A stretch of DNA of 64,000 nucleotides from Phenylobacterium sp. (GTDB taxonomy: Bacteria > Pseudomonadota > Alphaproteobacteria > Caulobacterales > Caulobacteraceae), in contig NZ_SCVD01000011.1 of the NCBI RefSeq assembly GCF_004297125.1, positions 1,286 through 65,285 on the forward strand, written 5' to 3'. The notes under the pieces were generated by a model that did no database searches, had not been told where the DNA came from, and saw only the letters and a list, made by a program, of their open reading frames with translations. The translations under genes were made by a program, and so were the position numbers. Each line of letters begins with the position of its first letter. Position 1 is the stretch's first letter. Shown one piece after another: positions 39,272 through 43,000 of this stretch.

Positions 39272-39485
39272 GTAACAGATGTAGCGGACCCAGGCAAGCC
39301 GACCCGCGTTCTCCGAGGCGGCGACGGGTCGCATGGTTAAATTTGGCGACGTCGCCTATTTTTCGCCCCGGTCCCAAGTCAGGACCCATCGCGTCGTCGC
39401 GGCTGACGCGTCGTCCCAGTCAAATCGCCATCAAGCTTGGCACGAGTTCGAGCTAGGCATGCATTTGTTGAGTGAAGGGTCCTGG

Positions 39486-40187
39486 ATGAAGTTGGGCGTT
39501 CCTGCGCGTTTGCTTGAGCTGGTCGAGAAGAAGCCTGCACTGTTGGTTTCTATAGTCGCGCTTGTCGGGACGACGGCTGCCGCAGCGGCGCCGTTGAGCC
39601 AGGCCGAGCACCGCGCCAGCCTCGTGACCGCCGTGGAACGCGCCGTGGACCAGGTGGCTCCGACGGCAGAGGCTGCGCCGCTGAAACTCGTCTGGGACGG
39701 CGCGGATGTCGACGGCGACGGCCGCGCCGACTTCGCCAACCCCACGGGCCGCGAGCCGCGCCTGCATGACGCCTATGGCGACGGTGAGTTCGGGGCCCGC
39801 CGCGACGGCGGCAGCCGCCGGCACGAAGGCGTCGACTACACGGCCAGGGCCGGCCAGGACGTGGCCGCGCCGATCTCAGGCTATGTCACCAAGATCGGCT
39901 ACGCCTATGCGGGCGACCAGACCCTGAAGTTCGTCGAGATCACCAACCCGGCCCTGAACTATGCCGCACGGGTCTTCTACGTGAACCCCAGGGTCGAGGT
40001 GGGCGAGACCGTGGCCATCGGCCAGCCGATCGCCACGGCCCGTTCGCTGCAGCGCAAGTATCCCGGCGGCATGACCGACCACGTGCATCTGGAGATCCTC
40101 GACCGCAGGGGCGACCGCATCGACGCCACACGCATGATCACCGCCGAATACCGCCCGGGCAACCTCACCGTCGCCGCCGCCGATTAG
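39486..40187 (+). CDS. M23-family metallopeptidase
   Basis: RRHEGVD (HxxxD) and DHVHLE (HxH) motifs, N-terminal hydrophobic segment; start inferred. Confidence 0.88.
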   Translation: MKLGVPARLLELVEKKPALLVSIVALVGTTAAAAAPLSQAEHRASLVTAVERAVDQVAPTAEAAPLKLVWDGADVDGDGRADFANPTGREPRLHDAYGDGEFGARRDGGSRRHEGVDYTARAGQDVAAPISGYVTKIGYAYAGDQTLKFVEITNPALNYAARVFYVNPRVEVGETVAIGQPIATARSLQRKYPGGMTDHVHLEILDRRGDRIDATRMITAEYRPGNLTVAAAD

Positions 40188-40227
40188 TCGTGGCTTGACC
40201 GCGCCACCGAGCTCGGGGCAATCATCG

Positions 40228-40405
40228 GCGGTGGCGCCCGCAAGGGCTCAAAAGGGAATGCGGTGCGTGCGCTTGCGCACAATGCCGCGGCTGCCCCCGC
40301 AACTGTAAGCGGCGAGCCGACGACCATCCAACGCCACTGGGGCCGCGAGGCCCTGGGAAGGCCGGTCCGAGGTTGTGACCCGCGAGCCAGGAAACCTGCC
40401 ACCAG
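40228..40405 (+). ncRNA. Cobalamin (B12) riboswitch
   Basis: AAAAGGGAA, GCCCCCGCAACTGTAA, GCCACTG, GGGAAG and B12-box GAGCCAGGAAACCTGCC in the expected order. Confidence 0.93.
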
Positions 40406-40537
40406 CCGTGGTCACGCGCGAGCGCATTGGGCGGGGTGCACCGATGTGAATGGACCGCCCACGCGCGCCTCCAGGCGCCGGCGGCGGCGCCATTTCCTTC
40501 GCGGTGACGTGTCACGTCCGCCGCGAGGTTTCGACCC

Positions 40538-41077
40538 ATGTCTGCTATCTCTTCCACCCACCGCACCGGCCTCTGGTCCGCCGGTCTCGTCGCCCTGGTC
40601 CTGGGCGGCTGCCTGCTGATCGGCTGCCTCGAGCCCCTGGTCGCCGTCGCGGTCATCGCCGCAGGCGCCCTGCCGTTCGGCCGCGCGTTGTTGCTGACCG
40701 GCGCGGTCTGGCTCGCGGGCCAGGCCATCGGCTTCGGCCTGCACGACTACCCGCGCGACGCCCAGACGATTTCCTGGGGCGTCGGCCTGGGCGTCGCGGC
40801 CCTCGTTTCCGTGGCCACCGCCGCGGCGGCGCTGCGGGTCTTCACAGACAAGCCTGTCTGGCTCCGTGCGGGGGCCGCGTTCGTCGCCGCCTTCGTGGCG
40901 AACCAGATCGTGATACTCGGCGTCGAACAGGTGGTCACCGGCGCCTGCACGATCCGTCCCGGCGTCATCAGCCTGGTGGGCGCGGTGAACGCGGCCTGGC
41001 TCGCGGGCCTGCTGGCCCTCGACGCCGTCCTCCGCCGCACGTCGCTGTCGGTTCCGCCCTTCGGACAGCGCGCATGA
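40538..41077 (+). CDS. Riboswitch-controlled small multi-TM protein, putative cobalt/cobalamin uptake
   Basis: 179 aa, ~5 hydrophobic segments, WLAGQAIGFGLHDYP motif; first gene after the riboswitch. Confidence 0.75.
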   Translation: MSAISSTHRTGLWSAGLVALVLGGCLLIGCLEPLVAVAVIAAGALPFGRALLLTGAVWLAGQAIGFGLHDYPRDAQTISWGVGLGVAALVSVATAAAALRVFTDKPVWLRAGAAFVAAFVANQIVILGVEQVVTGACTIRPGVISLVGAVNAAWLAGLLALDAVLRRTSLSVPPFGQRA

Positions 41078-41994
41078 GCGGCCTGCGCATCGTCTCCCTG
41101 CTGCCCAGCGCCACCGAGATCGTCGCCGCCGTGGGCATGGCCGACCGGCTCGTGGGCCGCTCTCACCAGTGCGACTTCCCGGTCCAGGTGCGCCATCTGC
41201 CGGCCCTCAGCGAGACCAAGGTCAACCTCGAGGGCACGTCGGGTGACATCGACCGGCGGGTGAACGAGATCATCGCCCAGGGCGTCTCGGTCTACCGCGT
41301 CGACGCAGACCTCCTGCGGGCGCTGAAGCCCGACGTGATCCTCACCCAGACCCAGTGCGCCATCTGCGCCGTCACCCCTGGCGACCTGGAGGACGCGCTC
41401 TGCGAATGGACCGGCACGGCCCCGACCCTGGTCTCGCTGGAACCCAACGACCTCTCCGACGTCTGGGGCGACATGCGCAAGGTCGGCCGGGCGCTGGGGA
41501 CGGAGGGCGCGGCGGAGCGCGCCATCGCCGGCCTTCAAGGCCGCCTCGCCGCGATCCGCGGGACTGCCGGCCGCGCCGCCTATCGTCCCACCGTGGCCGC
41601 CATCGAATGGATCGACCCGCTGATGGCCGGCGGCAACTGGATGCCCGAGCTGATAGAGGCGGCGGGCGGCGAGAGCCTGTTCGCCACCGCCGGCCAGCAT
41701 TCGCCCTGGCTGGACTGGAGCGCGTTGGCGGCGGCCGATCCCGACGTGATCCTGCTGCTGCCCTGCGGCTTCACCATCGACCAGAGCCTGGCCGACCTGC
41801 CGCTGCTCCGCGGGCGGCGGGAGTGGGCGCGCCTTTCGGCCGCTCGCCGCGGTCAGGTCTATGTCATCGACGGCCACCACTACTTCAACCGCCCTGGCCC
41901 ACGCCTGGTGGAGTCCGCCGAGATGATCGCCGAGATCCTGCATCCGGACCTGTTCGACTTCGGGCACGAGGGGGCGGGATGGGTCCGCCTCTAG
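41074..41994 (+). CDS. Cobalamin-binding (BtuF-like) protein
   Basis: RIVSLLPSATEIV, VGRSHQCDFP, NRPGPRLVES; ATGA overlap with the upstream gene. Confidence 0.85.
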   Translation: MSGLRIVSLLPSATEIVAAVGMADRLVGRSHQCDFPVQVRHLPALSETKVNLEGTSGDIDRRVNEIIAQGVSVYRVDADLLRALKPDVILTQTQCAICAVTPGDLEDALCEWTGTAPTLVSLEPNDLSDVWGDMRKVGRALGTEGAAERAIAGLQGRLAAIRGTAGRAAYRPTVAAIEWIDPLMAGGNWMPELIEAAGGESLFATAGQHSPWLDWSALAAADPDVILLLPCGFTIDQSLADLPLLRGRREWARLSAARRGQVYVIDGHHYFNRPGPRLVESAEMIAEILHPDLFDFGHEGAGWVRL

Positions 41995-42806
41995 GGCGCA
42001 AGCAGCGCCTTCAACTCGGCTCCCGTCGCCGCCTCGCCCAGGCGGTCGAACCGGCCCTCGGTGGCGATCTCGCGCGCCGCGCCCAGGAACCCGGCCCAGG
42101 CCGCGCGGGCCAGCGCCCCGCCGACGCTGATCCGGCGCACCCCCAGGTCGGCGAGCTCGGCCACGGTCAGGCCCTTGGTCCACATCAGGACGTTGAGGGG
42201 CAGGGGCGCCACGGCCTTCACGGCCGCCCCGATCTCTTCCCGCGTCTTCAGTCCCGGCGCGTAGAGGCAGTCCGCCCCCGCTTCGGCCAGGGCGGTCAGC
42301 CGGTTCAGGGTCTGGCCCAGGTCCATCTGCCCGATCAGCAGCCCTTCCGCGCGGGCCACCAGCACCGCCCCGGTCCCGTCGGCGTCGATCGCCGCCCGGG
42401 CCGCGCGCACGCGCTCCACCGCCAGCGCGGTCTCGTACAGCGGCTTGCCGGGGTCGTGGCTCATGTCCTCGATGGAAAGGCCGGCCACGCCCGTCGCCAG
42501 CGCCCGGCGCACGTTGGCCGCCACGTCCTCGGGCGCGTCGGCATAGCCGTTCTCGAAATCGGCGTTCAGCGGCAGGTCCGTGGCCGCCGACAGGACCGCG
42601 AGGTGATCCAGCATGTCGTTCAGCGGGACCTCGTTGTCCAACCGCCCGGTGGACCAGGCGAATCCCGAGCTGGTGCTGGCCAGGGCCTGGAATCCCAAGG
42701 CCTGCAGTATCCTGCCGCTGCCCGCGTCCCACGGATTGGGGATCACGAAGCAGCCGCTCTCATGCAGTTCGCGGAATCGGGCGCGCTTCTCGGCCGGAGT
42801 CGTCAT
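41991..42806 (-). CDS. Isocitrate lyase/PEP mutase family protein
   Basis: PNPWDAGS, ADFENGYAD, GLSIED, AGADCLYAP. Confidence 0.9.
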   Translation of the reverse strand: MTTPAEKRARFRELHESGCFVIPNPWDAGSGRILQALGFQALASTSSGFAWSTGRLDNEVPLNDMLDHLAVLSAATDLPLNADFENGYADAPEDVAANVRRALATGVAGLSIEDMSHDPGKPLYETALAVERVRAARAAIDADGTGAVLVARAEGLLIGQMDLGQTLNRLTALAEAGADCLYAPGLKTREEIGAAVKAVAPLPLNVLMWTKGLTVAELADLGVRRISVGGALARAAWAGFLGAAREIATEGRFDRLGEAATGAELKALLAP

Positions 42807-43000
42807 GGGACAACCTCGCAAGGTGGAGCTTAACGGCAAAAGCTTGGGTGCAGGAACAGGGGCGAAACGAATCGCGACCGAATCACTGACACCCAGCGAT
42901 TCAGCTTTCGTTCCCTACGACATATTGTATCTGAATCGCTTCGGCCCACAACGAAGCGTCATCTTTGGGCGCGACCGTTTCGCTATCTGTGCGGCTCGCC

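What the first reader, a model, noticed from the sequence alone, without database searches (positions are those of the whole stretch)
40228..41994. B12 riboswitch controlling a minimal two-gene unit without BtuB/BtuCD
Seen: a textbook cobalamin riboswitch; a hairpin (CTTCGCGG...CCGCGAGG, ~40497-40528) that overlaps the likely RBS; then a 179-aa multi-TM protein coupled to a BtuF-like gene. There is no TonB receptor, ABC permease or ATPase in the unit. Inference: a non-canonical corrinoid or cobalt uptake/salvage module, with the membrane protein acting like a solitary ECF S-component.
Basis: partly seen in the sequence, partly recalled or inferred. Interest (0 to 1): 0.6.

Follow-up and report, generated by a model that had tools for sequence, protein, structure and literature searches.

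The report
New BtuM-like B12 uptake gene pair
A vitamin-B12-sensing RNA switch controls a small membrane protein from an unnamed family, predicted to fold like the B12 permease BtuM, plus a cytoplasmic BtuF-like protein; together they look like an undescribed route for B12 across the inner membrane.

Summary
A cobalamin riboswitch (Rfam 106.8 bits, 40215-40417) is followed by a hairpin that buries the Shine-Dalgarno sequence (40497-40528). Then come a 179-aa six-helix membrane protein (40538-41077) and, overlapping it by ATGA, a 306-aa Peripla_BP_2 protein (41074-41994).

The membrane protein has no Pfam or NCBIfam family. Its AlphaFold model best matches BtuM bound to cobalamin (Z 13.1), and ECF S-components fill the next ranks. 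It shows no sequence relationship to BtuM (hhalign probability 0.1%). The genome has no EcfT.

Among 80 homologous loci, at least 56 have a same-strand B12 riboswitch upstream and 46 have a TonB-dependent receptor directly upstream. Fifteen have a binding-protein gene directly downstream, and 14 of those lack a signal peptide. Two complete genomes have the homolog but no BtuC.

The partner protein has no signal peptide and four invariant cysteines. Its orthologues elsewhere mostly stand alone without a riboswitch.

The host lacks CobN, CobS, CobU and CobA, uses B12 enzymes, and carries a canonical riboswitch-btuBFCD-cobQ operon elsewhere.

Best reading: a B12-repressed solitary S-component-type corrinoid permease plus a cytoplasmic binder or processor. 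All function is inferred, not shown.

The parts
40215..40417 (+). Cobalamin riboswitch aptamer (RF00174)
   Evidence: cmscan 106.8 bits, E 9.7e-26, full-length model match. It is one of only two such riboswitches in the genome.
40418..40496 (+). Linker and expression platform. It holds a block conserved among relatives (about 40433-40460) and a G+C hairpin with a weak T-run (40474-40499).
   Evidence: Alignment A2 of 7 leaders. A terminator-like site at 40474-40491 followed by ATTTCCTT, about what shuffles give. The hairpin sequence is not conserved among the relatives.
40497..40528 (+). Hairpin that sequesters the ribosome-binding site. The GAGG Shine-Dalgarno at 40525-40528 lies in its 3' arm.
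   Evidence: MFE -21 kcal/mol, z -2.7. Invariant in 7 related loci except one C/T. Sequence read.
40538..41077 (+). P0001: 179-aa six-helix inner-membrane protein of an unnamed family with a predicted S-component/BtuM-like fold. Candidate corrinoid permease.
   Evidence: GC3 0.906. No Pfam or NCBIfam hit. 479 clusters of homologues. AF2 pLDDT 87.9. VIA Z 13.1 to BtuM 8ovv_A. N-in/C-in topology by the positive-inside rule. Gene context.
41074..41994 (+). P0002: 306-aa cytoplasmic Peripla_BP_2 (BtuF/heme-binding-protein fold) protein with four invariant cysteines. Translationally coupled to P0001 through an ATGA overlap.
   Evidence: Pfam 87 bits. Aligns from residue 5 to mature BtuF. No signal peptide. 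Invariant C33, C95, C98, C231. AF2 pLDDT 91.5 and Foldseek hits to ShuT, RhuT and BtuF. Fused to cytoplasmic enzyme domains elsewhere.

Best explanation
This is a two-gene operon repressed by B12. When adenosylcobalamin binds the riboswitch, the conserved hairpin at 40497-40528 holds the Shine-Dalgarno sequence paired, so P0001 is not translated. P0002 is coupled to it through the ATGA overlap and falls with it.

P0001 is an inner-membrane protein with the fold of an ECF S-component. Its conserved residues, including an invariant Cys30, face the periplasm. The genome has no ECF module, so P0001 would work alone, as BtuM does. It would bind a corrinoid delivered to the periplasm by BtuB, which this genome encodes elsewhere, and carry it across the inner membrane by facilitated diffusion, probably by toppling.

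P0002 is a cytoplasmic protein with the BtuF/heme-binding fold and a four-cysteine site in its cleft. It would receive, trap or chemically process the incoming corrinoid, which would make uptake directional.

Shown here: the riboswitch, the hairpin, both genes, the predicted fold, the absence of EcfT, and the gene contexts. Inferred: the substrate, the direction of transport, the trapping role and the regulatory logic.
For: RNA:
- Rfam hit.
- Stable, conserved hairpin over the ribosome-binding site.

Fold of P0001:
- Confident model.
- BtuM-hydroxycobalamin is the top match at Z 13.1, rmsd 3.3 over 158 residues. The other matches down to Z 9 are ECF S-components (two of them cobalt/metal CbiM-type) apart from MreD; the next row, Z 8.5, is unrelated.
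- ESM Atlas gives weak leads to QueT and ECF-type families.

Topology: loop K+R counts are 9.1 inside against 0.7 outside, and most invariant residues lie in the periplasmic half.

Genome:
- No EcfT/CbiQ and no BtuM.

Context of homologues:
- Of 80 loci, 55 have a same-strand upstream riboswitch by my HMM, plus L110 by Rfam.
- 46 have a TonB-dependent receptor directly upstream.
- Only one is followed by BtuC and BtuD.
- The same pattern appears in a separate sample.
- Genomes G137 and G367, both 100% complete, have the homologue and no BtuC. G367's single B12 riboswitch heads receptor-homologue-TonB.

Partner:
- 14 of the 15 binding proteins directly downstream of a homologue lack a signal peptide. 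They come from Alphaproteobacteria, Verrucomicrobiota and Methylomirabilota.

Precedent: BtuM is proposed to act by facilitated diffusion with metabolic trapping by BtuR (PMC6072759).

Host: it has B12-binding-domain enzymes but no CobN, CobS, CobU or CobA was found, so it must import B12.
Against: - No experiment, and no residue-level superposition on BtuM, so a role for Cys30 at the cobalt is speculation.
- For helical bundles a Z near 13 can arise from common packing. The argument rests on the S-component folds that fill the ranks down to Z 9, not on the score. Foldseek found nothing significant.
- The host already has BtuFCD, so the pair is not needed for uptake as such.
- 24 genomes of the same genus lack the homologue.
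- P0002 orthologues in 44 of 400 Alphaproteobacteria mostly stand alone, and none of 20 scanned loci has a riboswitch. Its core function may therefore not be specific to B12.
- The four invariant cysteines suggest a metal or Fe-S site rather than a simple B12 pocket.
- No covariation supports the hairpin, because it is invariant.
Confidence: 0.55

Rival explanations
1. Cobalt or another metal is the substrate. P0001 would be a CbiM-like metal-binding membrane protein, and P0002 a cytoplasmic four-cysteine metallochaperone. B12 would regulate them because cobalt feeds B12 synthesis.
For: CbiM-type structures score nearly as well as vitamin S-components (4m5c Z 10.8, 5x3x_M Z 10.7). P0002 has four invariant cysteines plus a His and an Asp in the cleft. 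B12 riboswitches are known to control cobalt transporters (PMC2667541, listed).
Against: The host shows no CobN, CobS, CobU or CobA, so it has no B12 synthesis to feed. P0001 starts MSAISSTHR and lacks the N-terminal metal-binding motif of CbiM. No CbiQ was found. 46 of 80 homologues follow a riboswitch-controlled TonB-dependent receptor. BtuM-cobalamin is the best structural match.
Confidence: 0.1
2. P0001 is not a permease. It would be a membrane-bound corrinoid-handling protein: a receptor, a decyanase-type processor, or a docking site that hands B12 to BtuCD or to the TonB machinery. P0002 would have a separate housekeeping role and merely be co-transcribed.
For: The host keeps BtuFCD. One Methylobacterium locus has receptor-homologue-BtuF-BtuC-BtuD in a single operon (L131). 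TonB genes follow the homologue in three loci. P0002 orthologues are mostly unlinked to B12 loci. BtuM itself also has decyanase activity (PMC6072759).
Against: G137 and G367 have the homologue but no BtuC-like permease. In 45 of the 46 receptor-linked loci the homologue sits where btuFCD would normally be, with no BtuC or BtuD after it. The S-component fold is a transporter fold.
Confidence: 0.15
3. P0002 is exported by a non-classical route and acts in the periplasm as a BtuF-type shuttle that hands B12 to P0001.
For: P0002 has the fold and C-lobe motif of BtuF and of heme-binding proteins. The two genes are tightly coupled.
Against: Neither P0002 nor any of its 22 aligned relatives has a signal peptide or a twin-arginine motif, whereas the host's own BtuF has a classical one. 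The same domain is fused to diphthamide-synthase-like cytoplasmic enzymes in other bacteria. Four invariant free cysteines fit the cytoplasm better.
Confidence: 0.05
4. The link to B12 is only regulatory. The pair would serve a B12-independent backup process, as riboswitch-controlled metE or nrdAB do, and would not handle corrinoids.
For: B12 riboswitches do repress B12-independent isozymes. One relative has riboswitch-nrdAB beside the homologue's operon (L017).
Against: A membrane protein with a transporter fold that follows BtuB-type receptors in 46 of 80 loci, and sits beside cobS and cobU in others, fits corrinoid traffic and not an isozyme swap.
Confidence: 0.08

Closest known systems
BtuM (Thiobacillus denitrificans; PDB 6FFV, 8C7P, 8OVV; Rempel et al. 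2018, PMC6072759)
   Same: - About 180-200 aa with six helices and both termini in the cytoplasm.
- S-component fold (best structural match, Z 13.1).
- Host lacks an ECF module.
- The family sits next to btuB under B12 control.
- An invariant cysteine on the periplasmic side.
- A cytoplasmic partner gene that could make uptake directional (btuR there, P0002 here).
   Different: - No detectable sequence relationship: hhalign probability 0.1%; the BtuM HMM finds none of 229 family members; the family profile finds no PDB chain at E<=10.
- The BtuM motifs TRSHH, LPDAS, FCxSPAYW and SGR are absent.
- The invariant cysteine is in loop 1 (Cys30), not at the Cys80 position.
- The family is mainly alphaproteobacterial, while BtuM is mainly beta- and gammaproteobacterial.
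- The partner is a BtuF-fold protein, not an adenosyltransferase.
ECF-CbrT (Lactobacillus delbrueckii cobalamin ECF transporter; PDB 6FNP)
   Same: An S-component fold used for cobalamin.
   Different: CbrT needs EcfT and EcfAA', and none is found in this genome. The structural match is weaker (Z 6.4). There is no sequence similarity.
BtuCD-F (type II ABC importer for B12)
   Same: It serves the same step, periplasm to cytoplasm, and is also riboswitch-controlled. P0002 shares the BtuF fold and Pfam family.
   Different: The unit has no permease of the FecCD family and no ATPase. P0002 lacks a signal peptide, scores 26.5 bits against a cut-off of 234 for the BtuF equivalog, and has four invariant cysteines. 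The host's true btuFCD is on another contig.
CbiM of CbiMNQO (cobalt ECF transporter; PDB 5X3X)
   Same: S-component-like fold (Z 10.7). The system is often controlled by a B12 riboswitch.
   Different: P0001 has no N-terminal metal-binding motif, the genome has no CbiQ, and the host lacks the B12 biosynthesis genes searched for.
Solitary BioY (biotin S-component that works without an ECF module)
   Same: A precedent for an S-component fold that transports without an energising module.
   Different: Different substrate and family. BioY usually has an ECF module in other hosts.

Membership tests
Cobalamin riboswitch (Rfam RF00174) | Covariance-model score above the curated gathering score over the full aptamer | tested here: met
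   106.8 bits against 31.5, model positions 1-189
BtuM family | Sequence homology to BtuM of T. denitrificans or to the family profile | tested here: not met
   The A1 profile against PDB sequences finds nothing at E<=10. hhalign of A1 against three verified BtuM homologues gives probability 0.1%. The BtuM HMM against 229 family members finds nothing at E<=10.
BtuM family | Invariant cobalt-ligating cysteine in the FCxSPAYW motif (Cys80), with conserved His28, Asp67, Tyr85 and Arg153 | tested here: not met
   The motif is absent from alignment A1. The family's invariant cysteine is Cys30, between helices 1 and 2.
BtuM family | Six-helix S-component fold with cytoplasmic termini | tested here: met
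   Predicted model only: Z 13.1 to 8ovv_A; positive-inside count.
BtuM family | Host lacks an ECF module | tested here: met
   PF02361 not found in the 99.9%-complete genome.
BtuM family | Co-localisation with btuB or B12 regulation | tested here: met
   There is a riboswitch in the window. A receptor lies directly upstream in 46 of 80 homologous loci. In the window itself btuB is not adjacent.
BtuM family | Supports B12-dependent growth of E. coli lacking btuF, btuC and metE, and binds cobalamin base-off | not testable with these tools
   Needs wet-lab work.
ECF transporter S-component (generic) | Works with an EcfT/EcfA module encoded in the genome | tested here: not met
   No CbiQ/EcfT family match.
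CbiM (cobalt S-component) | Pfam CbiM match, N-terminal metal-binding motif, and CbiN/CbiQ/CbiO partners | tested here: not met
   No Pfam hit at E<=0.01. The N-terminus reads MSAISSTHR. No CbiQ.
CbtAB and HupE/UreJ cobalt transporters | Match to their Pfam families | tested here: not met
   P0001 and ten distant relatives have no Pfam family at E<=0.01.
BtuF (periplasmic B12-binding protein, NCBIfam NF002894) | Score above the equivalog cut-off | tested here: not met
   26.5 bits against a cut-off of 234. Only the general Peripla_BP_2 family is met, at 87 bits.
BtuF (periplasmic B12-binding protein, NCBIfam NF002894) | N-terminal signal peptide and a partner BtuCD | tested here: not met
   The protein starts at the mature domain. 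The host's real BtuF has a signal peptide. No BtuC or BtuD in the unit.
Class III (cluster A) substrate-binding-protein fold | Two Rossmann-like lobes joined by a long helix | tested here: met
   AF2 pLDDT 91.5. Foldseek E 1e-14 to 1e-15, TM 0.64-0.83 to ShuT, RhuT, PhuT and BtuF.

The most novel reading that the evidence does not exclude
P0001 founds a third, sequence-unrelated family of S-component-fold vitamin B12 permeases, after CbrT and BtuM, and it works without any ATPase. It would be the missing inner-membrane B12 transporter of many Alphaproteobacteria, and some Verrucomicrobiota and others, that have BtuB but no BtuCD. In a recurrent variant it is paired with a cytoplasmic BtuF-fold protein bearing four cysteines. 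That partner would capture or reductively process the corrinoid, giving a 'facilitator plus intracellular trap' mechanism.
Probability: 0.4. Interest if true: 0.75.

Novelty: new variant of a known kind. Interest (0 to 1): 0.62.

Why it matters
According to the BtuM paper, BtuCD-F is predicted in only about half of B12-auxotrophic bacteria, and many Gram-negatives have BtuB but no known inner-membrane transporter (PMC6072759).

This family has at least 479 clusters at 50% identity. Every name its sources give is 'hypothetical protein', and it has no Pfam or NCBIfam model. It offers a concrete, testable candidate for that gap in Alphaproteobacteria.

It would also show that the S-component fold was recruited for B12 at least three separate times at the sequence level.

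The conserved cytoplasmic, cysteine-rich BtuF-fold partner is annotated automatically as 'cobalamin-binding protein' and is very widespread. It is itself uncharacterised, and could reveal how imported corrinoids are trapped or processed.

Practically, genome-based predictions of B12 auxotrophy and cross-feeding in soil and water communities would need to count this family as an uptake marker.

Tried and rejected
- Longer P0002: its frame is open back to 40450, which might have supplied a signal peptide. Rejected. The extension is Arg/Pro/Gly-rich with GC3 of 0.58, typical of an off-frame reading.
- Natural fusions of the membrane protein with a binding protein: a search for longer relatives found none, which is weak evidence. 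The one 473-aa hit, P0204, has a junk-like C-terminus with no similarity to P0002.
- Foldseek against the PDB gave no significant match for P0001. Its best rows were S-components at TM about 0.45. Only the exhaustive VIA search showed the fold.
- An anti-sequestor idea: the 7-mer CCGCGAG of the hairpin's 3' arm also occurs twice in the aptamer (40343, 40380). The 7-mer occurs 46 times in the window, as chance predicts, so no claim is made.
- The terminator-like hairpin at 40474-40491 is about what shuffles give and is not conserved among relatives.
Contexts came from the genome search and the search for related loci instead.
- The literature library has nothing on DUF7676 or on a cytoplasmic BtuF-like protein. 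No paper found describes this family.
- Earlier findings of this scan: nothing relevant.
- My nhmmer riboswitch model missed one weak Rfam hit (L110, 36.5 bits), so the riboswitch counts are lower bounds.
I could not measure the distance from Cys30 to the cobalt site or the clustering of the four cysteines.
Full report
**What is in the sequence**

Rfam finds one family in the whole window: a full-length cobalamin riboswitch aptamer at 40215-40417 (+), scoring 106.8 bits against a gathering score of 31.5.

The first start codon of a 179-codon frame lies 120 nt downstream, at 40538. It is preceded by GAGG at 40525-40528. On its own the hairpin folds at -21 kcal/mol, z -2.7.

In seven related leaders the hairpin is invariant except for one C/T, although the encoded proteins are only 64-78% identical. 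This fits a regulatory element. Because nothing varies, there is no covariation evidence. A second G+C hairpin with a weak T-run (40474-40499) is about what shuffles give and is not conserved.

**Gene calls**

The frame at 40538-41077 (P0001) has GC3 of 0.906. The overlapping frame, which would extend the second gene upstream, has only 0.577 at its third position and translates to Arg/Pro/Gly-rich junk.

The second gene (P0002, 41074-41994) starts with an ATG that overlaps the TGA of P0001 as ATGA. This overlap recurs in close relatives.

Flanking genes are an M23 peptidase (39333-40187, +) and a convergent PEP-mutase/isocitrate-lyase-family gene (41991-42839, -). An ABC ATPase and a HlyD-like gene lie further upstream on the other strand. 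The unit therefore consists of the riboswitch and two genes, as reported.

**The membrane protein**

- P0001 matches no Pfam or NCBIfam model, and neither do ten distant relatives.
- Homologues are numerous: 82 close clusters, mostly from Phenylobacterium-type assemblies, and 479 clusters at 50% identity across the large library. Nearly all are about 180 aa. Every name given by a source is 'hypothetical protein'.
- An alignment of 22 members (A1) has invariant C30, P33, W58, Q62, G65, F66, P72, W80, G81 and G135.
- AlphaFold2 gives a confident six-helix model, pLDDT 87.9 and pTM 0.83.
- Foldseek finds nothing significant. An exhaustive alignment to 48,161 PDB representatives puts BtuM with hydroxycobalamin first (8ovv_A: Z 13.1, rmsd 3.3 Å, 158 residues). 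The other matches down to Z 9 are ECF S-components (two of them cobalt/metal CbiM-type), plus MreD at Z 10.7. The next row, at Z 8.5, is unrelated.
- Helical bundles can reach such Z values by common packing. The weight lies in one fold class filling the ranks down to Z 9.
- Across the family, the N-terminus, loops 2 and 4 and the C-terminus carry 9.1 Lys+Arg on average. Loops 1, 3 and 5 carry 0.7. Most invariant residues sit in the periplasmic half. This is the S-component topology, with a pocket facing outward.

**It is not BtuM by sequence**

- The family profile finds no PDB chain at E<=10, although BtuM is in the PDB.
- I recovered three genuine BtuM homologues from gammaproteobacterial btuR neighbourhoods. 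Their phmmer E-values to BtuM chains 8c7p/8ovv are 1e-39 to 1e-46. I aligned them as A4.
- hhalign of A1 against A4 gives probability 0.1%.
- A BtuM HMM finds none of 229 family members at E<=10, and BtuM queries find nothing significant in the host genome.
- The BtuM motifs, including FCxSPAYW with the cobalt-ligating Cys80 (PMC6072759), are absent.

The published list of BtuM hosts is mostly beta- and gammaproteobacterial. This family is mostly alphaproteobacterial.

**Gene context elsewhere**

In an even sample of 400 Alphaproteobacteria, 11 further genomes have a homologue. One of them, G240, is unpublished.

I examined ten of these loci at 18 kb or as much as the contig allowed:

| Architecture | Loci |
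|---|---|
| riboswitch-receptor-homologue with a TonB gene downstream | 3 |
| riboswitch-receptor-DUF7676-homologue | 1 |
| riboswitch-receptor-gap-homologue | 1 |
| riboswitch-homologue-signal-less Peripla_BP_2 | 2 |
| riboswitch-homologue-...-cobS-cobU | 1 |
| riboswitch-two unknown ORFs-homologue | 1 |
| no B12 link | 1 |

A scan of one genome per GTDB species gave 80 more loci. I annotated them with tblastn and with an nhmmer model of the riboswitch. That model recovered every Rfam hit in the validation loci and all nine of its hits that I rechecked with Rfam. It missed one weak hit, in L110. Results:

- At least 56 of 80 loci have a same-strand riboswitch upstream.
- 46 have a TonB-dependent receptor directly upstream.
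- 13 have DUF7676 between the receptor and the homologue.
- 15 have a Peripla_BP_2 gene directly downstream.
- Only one locus, L131 (Methylobacterium), continues with BtuF (with signal peptide), BtuC and BtuD.
- About half of the loci without a riboswitch are cut by contig ends.

The family also occurs in Verrucomicrobiota, Planctomycetota, Methylomirabilota and Steroidobacteraceae.

Two 100%-complete genomes, G137 and G367, have the homologue and no BtuC-like permease at E<=1e-10. G367's only cobalamin riboswitch heads receptor-homologue-TonB. In these operons the homologue occupies the place btuFCD normally holds.

**The host's B12 economy**

The genome is 5.77 Mb and 99.9% complete.

- It has two cobalamin riboswitches. 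The second heads btuB-btuF-btuC-btuD-cobQ on another contig.
- It has B12-binding domains in 887-aa and 722-aa frames.
- No CobS, CobA/BtuR, CobN or CobU was found, and no EcfT/CbiQ.

The host is therefore a B12 user that must import corrinoids. This argues against cobalt as the substrate and shows that P0001 has no ECF module to work with.

None of 24 other genomes of the same genus has the homologue, so the pair is an accessory trait.

**The partner protein**

- P0002 is a Peripla_BP_2 protein (87 bits). It falls far below the BtuF equivalog cut-off, 26.5 bits against 234.
- It aligns to mature Vibrio BtuF from its fifth residue and has no signal peptide. The host's own BtuF starts with a classical one.
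- Its model (pLDDT 91.5) matches the heme- and B12-binding class III proteins ShuT, RhuT, PhuT and BtuF, at E 1e-14 to 1e-15 and TM 0.64-0.83.
- The family is very large and well conserved: 66-69% identity to Chthoniobacterales proteins, against 50-58% to other Alphaproteobacteria.
- Twenty-three members share invariant H31, C33, D34, C95, C98 and C231, in the motifs SHxCD, TQxxCxxC and PCGF. By alignment to BtuF I judge that these positions line the cleft between the lobes, which hints at a metal or Fe-S site. This is inference.
- In other bacteria the same domain is fused to diphthamide-synthase-like and DUF5522 domains. That supports a cytoplasmic location.
- Its orthologues in 44 of 400 Alphaproteobacteria mostly stand alone, and none of 20 scanned loci has a riboswitch.
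- Even so, 12 of the 80 homologue loci, from three phyla, have a P0002-type gene directly downstream, and two more have another signal-less type. The pairing is recurrent but not obligatory.

**Mechanism proposed**

B12 bound to the aptamer favours the hairpin that buries the Shine-Dalgarno sequence. Translation of P0001 stops, and so does that of P0002 through the ATGA coupling.

When B12 is scarce, P0001 binds corrinoid in its periplasm-facing pocket after BtuB has brought it across the outer membrane. It then moves the corrinoid inward without ATP, as proposed for BtuM. P0002 binds or processes the corrinoid in the cytoplasm, which gives the direction that BtuR is thought to give for BtuM.

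The regulatory logic, the substrate, the direction and the trap are all inferred.

**Rivals**

- Cobalt uptake.
- A non-transport role as a corrinoid handler beside BtuCD.
- A periplasmic role for P0002.
- A B12-independent backup function.

Each is weighed in its own section. None fits the receptor linkage, the genomes without BtuC and the missing B12 synthesis genes as well as the proposed mechanism does.

**Novelty**

The papers I found name BtuCD-F, ECF-CbrT, BtuM and BacA as bacterial cobalamin transporters. Nothing in the library describes this family, DUF7676, or a cytoplasmic BtuF-like partner.

I rate it a new variant of a known kind. It has the same fold, the same context and probably the same job as BtuM. 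It differs in being an unrelated sequence family with different conserved residues and a different partner.

**Limits**

- All structures are predictions.
- No residue-level superposition was possible.
- Related genomes are not independent samples.
G480's locus was excluded from the scripts.

Noticed in passing
L021:8387-8977 (+), and 13 of the 80 loci L057-L136: A DUF7676 protein (about 190 aa, His-rich, no signal peptide) sits between the riboswitch-controlled TonB-dependent receptor and the P0001 homologue. It may be a second kind of cytoplasmic partner for this family. No paper in the library mentions DUF7676.
   Followed up: partly
G000 contig C38:160567-167070 (locus L004:1568-8070): The host's other B12 riboswitch heads btuB-btuF-btuC-btuD-cobQ. 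A CobQ (cobyric acid synthase) gene is present although no CobS, CobU, CobN or CobA was found anywhere in the genome. An isolated cobQ in an importer operon is unexplained.
   Followed up: partly
window 41074-41994, and alignment A3: The P0002 family is named 'cobalamin-binding protein' by automatic annotation. It has four invariant cysteines (C33, C95, C98, C231) plus H31 and D34, and no signal peptide. In other bacteria it occurs fused to diphthamide-synthase-like (PF01902) and DUF5522 domains. It looks like an uncharacterised cytoplasmic metal or Fe-S protein on a BtuF scaffold.
   Followed up: partly
window 41074-41994 compared with L070, L110 and hits: P0002 is 66-69% identical to proteins of Chthoniobacterales (Verrucomicrobiota) but only 50-58% identical to orthologues in other Alphaproteobacteria. 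Chthoniobacterales also has receptor-homologue-P0002 operons. This suggests transfer of the module between phyla.
   Followed up: no
genomes G401-G424: None of 24 other genomes of the host's GTDB genus has a P0001 homologue, while several Phenylobacterium-labelled assemblies (L057-L063, L125) do. The pair is patchily distributed.
   Followed up: no
L017:8727-10670 (-) and L017:5054-8358 (+): In a 2.1-Mb low-GC alphaproteobacterium (G137), one riboswitch precedes two ORFs of 169 and 176 aa with no Pfam family and then the P0001 homologue. A second riboswitch precedes class I ribonucleotide reductase nrdAB. No BtuC was found in that genome.
   Followed up: partly
L131:2-5632 (+): A Methylobacterium assembly has riboswitch-receptor-P0001 homologue-BtuF (with signal peptide)-BtuC-BtuD in a single operon. 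This is the only locus of the 80 where the homologue and the canonical ABC importer are co-transcribed.
   Followed up: no
window 41991-41994: The stop codon of P0002 (+) and the stop codon of the convergent PEP-mutase/isocitrate-lyase-family gene (-) overlap by 4 bases. This leaves no room for a terminator between the two genes.
   Followed up: no
window 40433-40460: A stretch between the aptamer and the ribosome-binding-site hairpin is nearly invariant in 7 related leaders. Its role in the expression platform is unknown.
   Followed up: no
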